A DNA stretch of 64,000 bases, taken from a virus. Positions 8,525 through 8,584 of the stretch are shown here, piece by piece. The translations under genes and the position numbers were made by a program. The notes under the pieces are model-generated. The model searched no databases. It was given only the letters and a program-made list of their open reading frames with translations, and had not been told where the DNA came from. The stretch covers positions 28,076-92,075 of IMG/VR virus record IMGVR_UViG_3300005468_000016; one strand, written 5' to 3'. Each line of letters opens with the position of its first letter. The stretch's first letter is position 1.

Positions 8525-8584
8525 TAGTGGACTCGACGGGAGTTGAACCCGCTGCCTAGTAACCGATCCGACGGTTCCGAGCCC
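8525..8584 (-). ncRNA. 60-nt tRNA-like mini-RNA without anticodon arm (Ala-identity acceptor)
   Basis: GGGCTCG/CGAGTCC acceptor with G3:U70 and A73; T-arm GCGGG-TTCAACT-CCCGT; one internal hairpin AACCG-TCGGAT-CGGTT; 3' ACTA. Confidence 0.65.

What the first reader, a model, noticed from the sequence alone, without database searches (positions are those of the whole stretch)
8525..8584. 60-nt anticodon-less RNA with alanine identity, like a stand-alone tmRNA tRNA-like domain
Sequence: GGGCTCG-G-AACCG-TCGGAT-CGGTT-ACTAGGCA-GCGGG-TTCAACT-CCCGT-CGAGTCC-A-CTA. G3:U70 and A73 are the established AlaRS determinants. The 3' half closely resembles tmRNA 3' ends (GCGGGTTCAACTCCCGCCAGCTCCACCA in E. coli), but there is no mRNA-like domain. 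The single GG-containing hairpin could dock on the T-loop. Inference: an Ala-chargeable mimic that could titrate SmpB/EF-Tu or act in ribosome rescue. The 3' end is CTA, so CCA would need trimming and re-addition.
Basis: partly seen in the sequence, partly recalled or inferred. Interest (0 to 1): 0.75.

Follow-up and report, generated by a model that had tools for sequence, protein, structure and literature searches.

The report
Anticodon-less alanine tRNA mimic in phage
A soil phage carries a 57-base RNA gene shaped like the amino-acid-accepting "top half" of an alanine tRNA with no anticodon, sitting behind a second defective tRNA look-alike in the leader of an operon; RNAs of this kind recur in phages, have a single published precedent (a mini-tmRNA that jams ribosome rescue), and their job is untested.

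Summary
On the minus strand at 8584..8525 lies a 60-nt element with a perfect 7-bp acceptor stem (G3:U70, A73), a 5-bp hairpin with a GG loop, an 8-nt linker, a canonical T-arm and no anticodon arm.

The tmRNA reading is only partly supported:
- Rfam's tmRNA model aligns only the two ends (22.7 bits). It scores genuine tRNA-Ala genes higher (29 bits) and the published TLD-only tmRNA of phage DS6A much higher (43 bits).
- E1's acceptor is identical to that of tRNA-Ala genes in bacterial tRNA arrays.
- Its layout is "tRNA minus anticodon arm", not a tmRNA tRNA-like domain.

New context:
- E1 is the second of two tandem elements. The upstream one (E2) carries the histidine marks G-1:C73 and an encoded CCA.
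- The pair begins about 9 nt after a promoter-like site and ends 10 nt before an ORF.
- Three related phages lack the pair.
- The phage has no canonical tRNA in 92 kb but encodes a CCA-adding enzyme.
- Nine similar short alanine-type elements turned up in other phage contigs.

Earlier notes of this scan record the same class in 20 or more other genomes.

Most likely E1 is an excised, chargeable tRNA mimic that acts as a decoy. This is untested. I rate it a new variant of a known kind.

The parts
8685..8713 (-). Promoter-like site TTGCAA (8713-8708), 17-nt spacer, TAAGGT (8690-8685). It ends 9 nt before E2's first base.
   Evidence: Read from the sequence. The consensus scanner did not call it, because its -10 matches only 3 of 6 positions. 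Relatives L008, L009 and L010 have promoter-like hexamers at the equivalent place, directly before the homologous ORF.
8586..8675 (-). E2: a 90-nt non-canonical tRNA-like element. It reads G-1 (8675), acceptor GACAUCG/CGAUGUC, T-arm GCAGG-UUCGAUU-CCUGU, C73 (8589) and an encoded CCA (8588-8586). Its central domain is structured but has no canonical anticodon loop.
   Evidence: Rfam tRNA-Sec 30.1 bits (gathering score 47) and tRNA 17.4 bits. ARAGORN finds it only at -ps80, with a 7/5 register, discriminator C and CCA. MFE -36.5 kcal/mol, z = -3.1. Found by the agnostic scan.
8585..8585 (-). Single-nucleotide spacer (A) between E2's CCA and E1's G1.
   Evidence: Sequence.
8528..8584 (-). E1 core, 57 nt: acceptor stem with G3:U70, D-like hairpin with a GG loop, 8-nt linker, T-arm and discriminator A73. 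This is the finding.
8525..8527 (-). 3' trailer CUA where CCA would be. CCA would have to be added after trimming.
   Evidence: Sequence. DS6A's TLD-only tmRNA and a phage tRNA-Ala also end A-CUA.
8314..8517 (-). A 67-aa ORF whose ATG lies 10 nt after E1's A73, with no Shine-Dalgarno sequence. It is the first gene of the minus-strand cassette 8517..2662.
   Evidence: ORF list. Homologues follow the promoter directly in L008, L009 and L010. One 78%-identical homologue exists in the protein collection. No Pfam or PHROG family matched.

Best explanation
E1 is a real, transcribed tRNA-shaped element: the acceptor stem, T-arm and elbow of an alanine-type tRNA whose anticodon arm has been replaced by a short linker. 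It most likely descends from a phage or array-type tRNA-Ala, not from ssrA. It belongs to a recurrent, almost undescribed class of short alanine-type tRNA mimics in phage genomes.

Proposed mechanism (inferred, not shown):
1. The promoter at 8713-8685 drives one transcript that begins 2-3 nt before E2 and runs through E2, E1 and the operon.
2. RNase P cuts at the 5' ends of E2 and E1. The cut at E1 leaves E2 with CCA plus one extra nucleotide.
3. E1's CUA trailer is trimmed, and CCA is added by the host enzyme or by the phage's own CCA-adding enzyme.
4. AlaRS, which reads only the acceptor stem, charges E1 through G3:U70 and A73. E2 carries G-1:C73, the acceptor-stem marks read by HisRS.
5. 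Without an anticodon, the RNAs cannot decode. They would act in trans as decoys or competitors for factors that read the top half of tRNA-Ala or tmRNA. SmpB and the trans-translation pathway are the candidate with experimental precedent.

A by-product is release of the downstream mRNA with a 10-nt leader that lacks a Shine-Dalgarno sequence.
For: Structure: 17 of 17 pairs form, the T-loop UUCAACU is canonical with a G53:C61 closing pair, and the hairpin loop contains GG. E1 and E2 are the only tRNA-shaped elements in 92 kb.

Both elements keep intact the parts read by RNase P, CCA-adding enzyme, EF-Tu and acceptor-reading synthetases, while both lack a usable anticodon loop.

Identity sets: bacterial Ala is A73, G2-C71, G3:U70 and G4-C69, and His is G-1 and C73. 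HisRS charges mini- and microhelices that carry G-1:C73, and AlaRS recognition has been dissected on minihelices (PMC9976931). E1 meets three of the four Ala acceptor elements. E2 has G-1, C73 and an encoded CCA.

The layout is compact: the promoter-like site ends 9 nt before E2, a 1-nt spacer separates E2 from E1, and 10 nt separate E1 from the ATG.

The same phage encodes a CCA-adding enzyme (PolyA_pol, RNA-binding and HD domains), with an RlaP nucleotidyltransferase and a YggL homologue beside it.

Class evidence: a length-restricted pattern found 10 short hits (49-61 nt) in IMG/VR, where I estimate about 0.1 by chance. Nine of them are real short elements. All have complementary acceptor strands. 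Aligned together, 96% of cells pair, 9 pairs show compensatory changes, and 0 of 500 shuffles reach this. Several lie within mRNAs just upstream of a start codon, as E1 does.

Precedents: DS6A's TLD-only tmRNA, with inhibition of tmRNA by a similar molecule. Irregular G-1 tRNAs in soil polycistrons are charged by HisRS but not used in translation (PMC5389517).
Against: No expression, processing or charging data exist. Only DNA contigs were found in public runs, so those runs are uninformative.

E2-E1 is absent from the three related phages I could fetch (52-60% identity in the neighbouring protease gene). E1 itself therefore has no conservation or covariation support.

The short look-alikes were found with a pattern that demanded intact ends, so their intact ends prove nothing. 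Their internal parts are heterogeneous. Full-length tRNA-Ala genes with the same acceptor are far commoner (120 or more), so some short forms could be deletion pseudogenes.

E1 has C4-G69 instead of the minor Ala determinant G4-C69.

None of five other contigs with short elements encodes a CCA-adding enzyme, so that link is not general.

E1's fold energy is only marginally better than that of shuffles (z = -1.97).

The TLD features through which SmpB binds tmRNA (its D-loop and helix P2) are not recognisable in E1.
Confidence: 0.45

Rival explanations
1. E2 and E1 are purely cis-acting processing signals ("tRNA punctuation"). They exist only so that RNase P and 3' processing enzymes cut the transcript, fixing or stabilising the 5' end of the downstream mRNA, which lacks a Shine-Dalgarno sequence. 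The excised RNAs would be by-products with no function in trans.
For: The pair sits exactly between the promoter-like site and an ORF that is essentially leaderless in three relatives. E1 ends 10 nt before the ATG, and no Shine-Dalgarno sequence is present. Look-alikes in other phages also lie between co-directional genes, 12-38 nt before the next start codon. Only the acceptor and T-arm module that RNase P and RNase Z recognise is canonical.
Against: The relatives express the same ORF without any such element, so it is not needed for the operon. Processing signals would not need complete Ala (G3:U70, A73) and His (G-1:C73, CCA) identity sets. Processing would leave a 10-nt leader, not a true leaderless mRNA. 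This reading is not exclusive of the best explanation.
Confidence: 0.22
2. E2 and E1 are decaying pseudogenes: remnants of a captured tRNA pair or array fragment that lost their anticodon arms and now have no function.
For: The pair is lineage-specific, being absent in L008, L009 and L010. E1's acceptor and T-arm are identical to those of full tRNAs elsewhere: 32 of 32 nt with L022, and the same acceptor stem as the tRNA-Ala genes of the Myxococcota arrays. Shortened tRNA-Ala-like genes occur inside phage tRNA clusters (L086, L092, L155, L173). A 62-nt tRNA without an anticodon arm and without Ala identity ends a bacterial tRNA cluster (L071).
Against: Every helix of the top half is perfect in both elements, and the tertiary-contact nucleotides are kept. 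The central parts are not leftover D-arm or anticodon-arm sequence but new, stably folded hairpins (E2 z = -3.1). The spacing between promoter, E2, E1 and the ATG is tight. Short Ala-type elements recur in unrelated phages that have no tRNA cluster nearby (7 of 9).
Confidence: 0.17
3. E1 is a true homologue of ssrA: a TLD-only, CDS-less tmRNA like that of mycobacteriophage DS6A. It would bind SmpB through tmRNA-specific features.
For: The best Rfam hit is tmRNA. The T-arm GCGGGUUCAACUCCCG equals that of E. coli ssrA, and 25 of the last 32 nt match. A genuine Clostridial tmRNA ends with the same 25 nt. The trailer A-CUA is the same as in DS6A. The phage's Cca and YggL point to a proteobacterial host.
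Against: The score of 22.7 bits is below true tRNA-Ala genes (29) and DS6A (43.2). Nine D-loop positions of the model are deleted in the alignment, and no P2 helix follows a D-loop. Position 4:69 is C-G, where the tmRNA consensus has G-C. The 5' strand equals the tRNA-Ala type. The mt-tmRNA model gives no hit.
Confidence: 0.1
4. The 3' part of E1 is an attachment-site core copied from a host tRNA-Ala or ssrA gene, and the 5' pairing is fortuitous.
For: tRNA and tmRNA 3' ends are common phage integration sites. One look-alike (L085) lies about 220 nt from a tyrosine integrase gene.
Against: No tyrosine integrase was found in the 92-kb record, though the record is about 70% complete and serine recombinases were not searched. 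The element lies between head genes, in an operon leader. The 5' strand pairs perfectly over 7 bp. A second complete tRNA-like element lies 1 nt upstream.
Confidence: 0.03

Closest known systems
TLD-only (CDS-less) tmRNA of Mycobacterium phage DS6A (JN698994.1: 28478-28560; tmRNA Website tmID 11587; Hudson et al. 2014, PMC4131195; 2025 tmRNA database paper, PMC11915505; Mao et al. 2009 as cited there)
   Same: Phage-encoded, intergenic, small, with G3:U70 and A73, a T-arm, no reading frame, no anticodon, and a 3' end of A-CUA rather than CCA. A similar molecule inhibits tmRNA in E. coli, perhaps by titrating SmpB.
   Different: DS6A's RNA is 83 nt and starts GGGG. It has the tmRNA D-loop (AAUGGUGGUCGAC) followed by an 8-bp P2 helix, and it scores 43.2 bits on RF00023. 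E1 is 57 nt and starts GGGC. Its hairpin begins 1 nt after the acceptor stem and is followed by an 8-nt linker, and it scores 22.7 bits. DS6A's gene stands alone. E1 is fused behind a second tRNA-like element in an operon leader.
CDS-less tmRNAs of jakobid mitochondria (Rfam RF02544) and Mallomonadaceae plastids, about 65 nt (PMC11915505)
   Same: Minimal alanine-type tRNA-like RNAs with no tag reading frame.
   Different: They are organellar, co-occur with SmpB, and are homologous to tmRNA. The RF02544 model gives no hit on this phage.
Polycistrons of allo-tRNA-like and other irregular tRNAs in soil metatranscriptomes (Mukai et al. 2017, PMC5389517)
   Same: Tandem non-canonical tRNA-like genes in soil samples that score as tRNA-Sec-like, as E2 does. 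Some carry G-1 and are charged by HisRS yet are not used in translation, and some carry G3:U70. They often lie next to small regulatory or toxin-antitoxin-like genes.
   Different: Those RNAs keep anticodon arms, and the authors attribute them to Acidobacteria rather than phages.
tRNA-Ala genes of bacterial tRNA arrays and of phages (L051, L060, L018, L022, L005-L007)
   Same: The acceptor stem GGGCUCG/CGAGUCC plus A73 is identical, and the T-arm is nearly identical. L022 matches E1 at 32 of 32 nt of acceptor stem plus T-arm. CCA is often not encoded.
   Different: They are full cloverleaves of 72-76 nt with anticodons, and both ARAGORN and RF00005 recognise them. E1 has no anticodon arm, and neither tool calls it.
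mascRNA, cut from the MALAT1 transcript (my own recollection: Wilusz et al. 2008; Rfam RF01684)
   Same: As I recall, it is a tRNA-like RNA of about 60 nt, cut from a longer transcript by RNase P and RNase Z, given a CCA tail, and unable to decode. It is a working model for how E1 could be excised.
   Different: It is eukaryotic and, as I recall, is not aminoacylated. The Rfam hit on E1 is at chance level (14 bits, E = 8.8). It is an analogy only.

Membership tests
tmRNA / TLD-only tmRNA (Rfam RF00023) | Acceptor stem with G3:U70 and discriminator A73 | tested here: met
   GGGCUCG/CGAGUCC with G3:U70 and A73. tRNA-Ala has the same feature, so it does not discriminate.
tmRNA / TLD-only tmRNA (Rfam RF00023) | Score at or above the family's gathering score, or at least above the scores of tRNA-Ala genes | tested here: not met
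   22.7 bits against a gathering score of 47. True array tRNA-Ala genes score 29.0-29.1. DS6A's TLD-only tmRNA scores 43.2.
tmRNA / TLD-only tmRNA (Rfam RF00023) | Single-stranded D-loop with the tmRNA consensus (..GGaUUCGAC), followed by helix P2 | tested here: not met
   The Rfam alignment deletes 9 D-loop positions and pairs only 2-3 bases for P2. In E1 a 5-bp hairpin starts 1 nt after the acceptor stem and is followed by an 8-nt linker. DS6A shows both features.
tmRNA / TLD-only tmRNA (Rfam RF00023) | 5' GGGG (G4-C69) as in the model consensus | tested here: not met
   E1 has C4-G69.
tmRNA / TLD-only tmRNA (Rfam RF00023) | Binds SmpB, or inhibits or takes part in trans-translation | not testable with these tools
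   No SmpB gene in the phage record. Binding needs a bench test.
Mitochondrial CDS-less tmRNA (RF02544) | Match to the covariance model | tested here: not met
   No match at E <= 10 in the 92-kb record.
Canonical tRNA-Ala | Cloverleaf with an anticodon arm bearing NGC, recognised by ARAGORN or RF00005 | tested here: not met
   ARAGORN finds 0 genes. RF00005 gives no hit on E1 at E <= 10. No anticodon arm is present.
Substrate of bacterial AlaRS (identity set A73, G2-C71, G3:U70, G4-C69; PMC9976931) | A73, G2-C71 and G3:U70 | tested here: met
   All three are present.
Substrate of bacterial AlaRS (identity set A73, G2-C71, G3:U70, G4-C69; PMC9976931) | Minor determinant G4-C69 | tested here: not met
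   E1 has C4-G69. So do 120 or more full-length phage tRNA-Ala-like genes matched by the GGGCYYG pattern, so this is probably tolerated.
Substrate of bacterial AlaRS (identity set A73, G2-C71, G3:U70, G4-C69; PMC9976931) | A 3' CCA end, and actual alanylation | not testable with these tools
   The gene encodes CUA, not CCA. A CCA-adding enzyme is encoded by the phage. Charging needs a bench test.
Short alanine-type tRNA-like elements of phages (class seen here: L084-L089, L091-L093) | A 7-bp acceptor GGGCNNG with G3:U70 and A73, a canonical T-arm, total length about 50-61 nt, and a small internal hairpin in place of the D and anticodon arms | tested here: met
   The E1 model R1 hits them at 22-37 bits. 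The shared structure is 96% paired with compensatory changes. Caveat: the members were selected by pattern, and their internal parts are heterogeneous.
Phage attachment-site core | Integrase nearby, and identity to a host gene limited to its 3' part with no 5' pairing partner | tested here: not met
   No PF00589 match in the record. The 5' strand pairs over 7 of 7 positions. Serine recombinases were not searched, and the host genome is unknown.

The most novel reading that the evidence does not exclude
The phage makes, from one operon leader, a matched pair of anticodon-less tRNA mimics. They carry exactly the two identity sets that synthetases read without an anticodon: G-1:C73 for histidine on E2 and G3:U70/A73 for alanine on E1. 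The phage's own CCA-adding and repair enzyme would complete them. Once charged, they would act as a dedicated decoy or donor system. They might jam tmRNA-SmpB rescue and other host systems that read or attack tRNA acceptor ends. Alternatively they might hand Ala or His to a non-ribosomal acceptor. This would be a system not described for any phage.
Probability: 0.15. Interest if true: 0.8.

Novelty: new variant of a known kind. Interest (0 to 1): 0.55.

Why it matters
If E1-type RNAs are made and charged, phages would have a cheap, widespread way to interfere with ribosome rescue or with other machinery that reads the acceptor end of tRNA-Ala and tmRNA. So far only one phage RNA (DS6A) and one inhibition experiment hint at this.

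This instance adds three things. The mimic can arise from a tRNA-Ala scaffold rather than from ssrA. It can be paired with a histidine-type mimic. It can be carried as a processed module in an mRNA leader, in a phage that has no tRNAs of its own in 92 kb yet brings a CCA-adding enzyme.

There is also a practical point. Standard tRNA and tmRNA finders miss these genes, and a weak match to the ends of the tmRNA model does not distinguish them from tRNA-Ala.

Tried and rejected
- Phage GenBank blastn with the 600-nt region: no match.
- IMG/VR scans with the protease protein and with an exact E1 3' pattern: nothing.
I therefore could not fetch the 1.2-kb contig of the only close homologue of the leader ORF (P0002, 78% identity). 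That is where conservation of E2-E1 could have been tested.
- Public runs: four DNA holders were listed, one of which may be the source sample, and no RNA holder was listed. Laying them gave only identical low-depth fragments. Outside the source run there was no usable cover over E1/E2, so no variants, no ends and no expression information.
- Host identification: the protease protein gave 1 weak hit in 401 Myxococcota genomes and none in 401 Acidobacteriota genomes. The nearest named relatives of the phage Cca are Gammaproteobacteria at 45-52% identity.
- E1 covariance model on 150 Myxococcota and 150 Acidobacteriota genomes: mostly full-length tRNAs at about 30 bits. One 62-nt non-Ala analogue (L071) was found, and no E1 homologue.
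- Test of alanine specificity with an identity-agnostic scan of 714 kb of phage loci: inconclusive, because those loci had been fetched through an alanine-type pattern.
- Association with a phage CCA-adding enzyme: 0 of 5 other contigs.
- SmpB and RtcB in the phage record: none.
- Pfam and PHROGs on ten cassette proteins, and the protein atlas on the two window-specific neighbours: uninformative.
- blastn of E1 against E. coli genomes: no match at E <= 10, because the query is too short. I read ssrA directly from MG1655 instead.
- The supplement of Mukai et al. is not held, and Mao et al. 2009 is not held.
- An 81-aa ORF (8504-8749, minus strand) overlaps E1/E2. I judged it spurious, because it spans the promoter-like site and two tRNA folds and has no counterpart in the relatives. 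I did not test it further.
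Full report
**1. What is there**

The quoted 60-mer is the reverse complement of window 8525-8584. Read on the minus strand it has these parts:
- a 7-bp acceptor stem GGGCUCG/CGAGUCC with G3:U70
- one unpaired G
- a 5-bp hairpin AACCG-UCGGAU-CGGUU
- an 8-nt linker ACUAGGCA
- a T-arm GCGGG-UUCAACU-CCCGU with a canonical T-loop
- the discriminator A73, followed by CUA

This fold is both the MFE and the centroid structure, at -23.7 kcal/mol. Its z-score is only -1.97, so thermodynamics alone is weak evidence. 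ARAGORN and Rfam at their curated thresholds call nothing in the window or in the whole record. In permissive mode Rfam's tmRNA model aligns the two ends at 22.7 bits, with E = 3.5e-7, or 1.1e-8 over the record. An identity-agnostic script looked for a 7-bp acceptor plus a 5-bp T-stem with a T-loop. In 92 kb it finds only this element, its upstream neighbour and one poor candidate, and it finds nothing in the reversed sequence.

**2.

The window is the right-hand 64 kb of a 92-kb IMG/VR viral record. The record is about 62% G+C and CheckV estimates it as 70% complete. It has Mu-like portal, protease/scaffold and major head genes. Between portal and protease lies a minus-strand cassette (8517..2662), and E1 sits at its head.

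*The neighbour E2.* One nucleotide upstream of E1 is a second tRNA-like element, E2 (8675-8586). Rfam scores it 30.1 bits as tRNA-Sec and 17.4 bits as tRNA. Its MFE z-score is -3.1. ARAGORN sees it only at a relaxed threshold, with a 7/5 register. In that register E2 reads G-1, GACAUCG ... CGAUGUC, C73, CCA. So it carries the tRNA-His hallmark G-1:C73 and an encoded CCA. Its central domain is well folded but has no canonical anticodon loop.

*Promoter and downstream ORF.* A promoter-like TTGCAA-17 nt-TAAGGT (8713-8685) ends 9 nt before G-1. I read this by eye, and the consensus scanner did not call it. E1's A73 lies 10 nt before the ATG of a 67-aa ORF that has no Shine-Dalgarno sequence.

*Absence in relatives.* I fetched three related phages through the adjacent protease gene (52-60% amino-acid identity; L008, L009, L010). 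In each, the homologous small ORF follows a promoter-like site within about 5-11 nt, and none has a tRNA-like element there. E2-E1 is therefore a lineage-specific module of about 150 nt in the leader of an otherwise near-leaderless operon.

*RNA-end enzymes in the same phage.* Outside the window (record 9591-12344, minus strand) lie three adjacent genes. Earlier scan notes pointed to this cassette, and I verified it:
- a CCA-adding enzyme with PolyA_pol, RNA-binding and HD domains
- an RlaP-family nucleotidyltransferase
- a YggL-like 50S-binding protein

The record has no canonical tRNA, SmpB, RtcB or tyrosine integrase.

**3. tmRNA or tRNA-Ala ancestry**

That resemblance is not specific, for several reasons.
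- A scan of one genome for each of 185,579 bacterial and archaeal species, using the 3'-half motif that E1 and E2 share, gave 52 loci. ARAGORN calls most of them tRNA-Ala, and one is a tmRNA.
- Three Myxococcota assemblies (L018, L051, L060) carry long tRNA arrays whose tRNA-Ala has exactly E1's acceptor stem and A73. L018 lies in a genome flagged as unpublished. Nothing here rests on it alone, because L051 and L060 show the same.
- A solo tRNA in an Acidobacteriota assembly (L022) is identical to E1 over all 32 nt of acceptor stem plus T-arm.
- As a control, the Rfam tmRNA model hits true array tRNA-Ala genes at 29 bits, more than E1's 22.7. It scores the published TLD-only tmRNA of phage DS6A at 43.2 bits, with the D-loop and an 8-bp P2 helix aligned.
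- In E1 the model's D-loop is deleted, position 4:69 is C-G rather than G-C, and the hairpin directly follows the acceptor stem with a linker behind it. That is the order of a tRNA that has lost its anticodon arm. A TLD has a long D-loop and then P2.
- The jakobid mt-tmRNA model does not hit.

I conclude that E1 works like a TLD-sized alanine mimic but is not shown to be a tmRNA family member. Descent from a tRNA-Ala is the more economical reading.

**4. A recurrent class**

I ran a pattern that requires E1-type acceptor strands and a T-loop, but only 18-32 nt between them. That spacing is too short for a full tRNA. It found 10 IMG/VR contigs, where I estimate about 0.1 by chance. One hit is a false positive inside a full tRNA-Ala. 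The other nine are elements of 51-61 nt with G3:U70, A73, a T-arm and a small internal hairpin, usually with GG in its loop.

The two acceptor positions the pattern left free are complementary in all of them. Aligned to the E1 model, 96% of cells pair, nine pairs show compensatory changes, and 0 of 500 shuffles reach this.

Their contexts vary:
- Two lie in phage tRNA clusters, and seven lie in contigs with no tRNA nearby.
- One is next to an integrase.
- L084 is again a tandem with another ARAGORN-negative tRNA-like element, between two co-directional genes.
- The best look-alike is in a complete 77.7-kb phage. It overlaps the stop codon of the upstream gene and ends 12 nt before the next ATG.

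Caveats apply. The pattern itself demanded intact ends. The internal parts differ, some D-arm-like and some TLD-like. My attempt to test whether shortening is specific to alanine identity was confounded by how the loci had been chosen. A 62-nt analogue without Ala identity closes a Myxococcota tRNA cluster (L071).

After I had these results, the scan's own notebook showed 20 or more earlier notes of the same class in other genomes, most naming DS6A as the closest known. I treat them as agreement, not as evidence.

**5. Published knowledge**

- Hudson et al. 2014 list DS6A as "TLD only". [quoted passage not shown] 2009).
- The 2025 tmRNA database paper repeats this and adds CDS-less forms of about 65 bp in plastids and mitochondria.
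- Mukai et al. 2017 describe soil polycistrons of allo-tRNA-like and other irregular tRNAs. Some carry G-1 and are charged by HisRS but not used in translation.
- Giege and Eriani 2023 give the bacterial identity sets. Ala is A73, G2-C71, G3:U70 and G4-C69, and His is G-1 and C73 plus the anticodon. They report that HisRS charges mini- and microhelices carrying G-1:C73 and describe AlaRS recognition studied on minihelices.
- E1 meets the Ala set except G4-C69. The full-length phage tRNA-Ala genes with this acceptor also lack G4-C69.
- I found no paper in the library that describes the wider phage class.

**6. How it most likely works**

Shown by the analyses above:
- the fold
- the identity nucleotides
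- the tandem and leader position
- the absence in relatives
- the phage Cca
- the recurrence of look-alikes

Inferred:
- One transcript starts 2-3 nt before E2.
- RNase P cuts before G-1 of E2 and before G1 of E1. The second cut leaves E2 with CCA plus one extra A.
- E1's CUA is trimmed and replaced by CCA.
- AlaRS charges E1, and HisRS possibly charges E2.
- The RNAs cannot decode. They act as decoys for factors that read the top half of tRNA-Ala or tmRNA. SmpB and trans-translation are the only target with experimental precedent.

Both elements keep every feature of the acceptor and T-arm module. Both lose the anticodon loop and fold their centres into new stable hairpins. Both bear the two identity sets that work without an anticodon. 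This argues for selection on end-recognition functions rather than for decay. I give this explanation 0.45.

Rivals:
- Purely cis-acting processing signals, 0.22. This is not exclusive of the best explanation.
- Pseudogenes, 0.17.
- A true ssrA-derived TLD, 0.10.
- An att core, 0.03.

**7. Verdict**

The finding is a real feature. It is a new variant of a known but barely described kind. The closest known example is the TLD-only tmRNA of DS6A, and E1 fails the defining architecture and model score of that family. What is new here:
- the tRNA-Ala-type scaffold
- the pairing with a His-type mimic
- the operon-leader placement
- a phage with no tRNA genes in the 92 kb recovered that nevertheless brings a CCA-adding enzyme

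I score interest at 0.55.

Noticed in passing
window 8586-8675 (minus strand): E2 is a 90-nt tRNA-like element with the histidine marks G-1:C73 and an encoded CCA. It has a long extra arm and no canonical anticodon loop. Two mutually exclusive helices, CCUCU/AGAGG and GAGGA/UCCUC, compete in its centre. It has no relatives in IMG/VR by 3'-half pattern.
   Followed up: partly
record G000:C1 9591-12344 (L002, minus strand; about 15.7-18.5 kb before the window start): Three adjacent genes in a phage with no canonical tRNA in 92 kb: a CCA-adding enzyme (PolyA_pol, RNA-binding and HD domains), an RlaP-family nucleotidyltransferase and a YggL-like 50S-binding protein. The nearest named relatives of the Cca are Gammaproteobacteria at 45-52% identity.
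   Followed up: partly
L022:6657-6728 (Acidobacteriota MAG): A solo full-length tRNA with anticodon GUC (Asp) but an alanine-type acceptor (G3:U70, A73). Its acceptor stem and T-arm are identical to E1's. It could be a tRNA that inserts Ala at Asp codons.
   Followed up: no
L018, L051, L060 (Myxococcota MAGs; L018 lies in a genome flagged as unpublished): Long tRNA arrays of 18-28 tandem genes with non-canonical members. For example, the tRNA-Leu genes are only 74-76 nt, and several members score as tRNA-Sec-like or tmRNA-like.
   Followed up: partly
L071:1501-1562 (minus strand; Myxococcota genome G085): A 62-nt tRNA-like unit with a perfect acceptor stem, a D-arm and a T-arm but no anticodon arm. 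It has A3:U70, so it is not Ala-type. It is the last unit of a chromosomal tRNA cluster.
   Followed up: partly
L084:7962-8095 (minus strand): A second example of a tandem. A tRNA-like element of about 70 nt with a poor D-arm and a loop GUGCUCA is directly followed by a 61-nt Ala-type element whose anticodon arm is cut down to a 4-bp stem with a tetraloop. The pair lies between two co-directional genes, after a terminator-like hairpin.
   Followed up: partly
L217:1501-1563 (minus strand; complete 77.7-kb phage G806): The stop codon of the upstream 79-aa ORF lies inside the 5' acceptor strand of the short Ala-type element. RNase P cleavage there would therefore leave that mRNA without a stop codon.
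   Followed up: no
L155 and L173 (IMG/VR): Two 66-nt tRNA-Ala-like genes with normal D-arms but shortened anticodon arms (3-4-bp stems, loops of 5 or 7 nt). They are intermediates between a full tRNA-Ala and the short forms.
   Followed up: no
window 52733-52816 (plus strand): A weak tRNA-shaped candidate of 84 nt, with acceptor AGGATCG/CGGTCCT and a non-canonical T-loop CTTGACC. It is probably chance.
   Followed up: no
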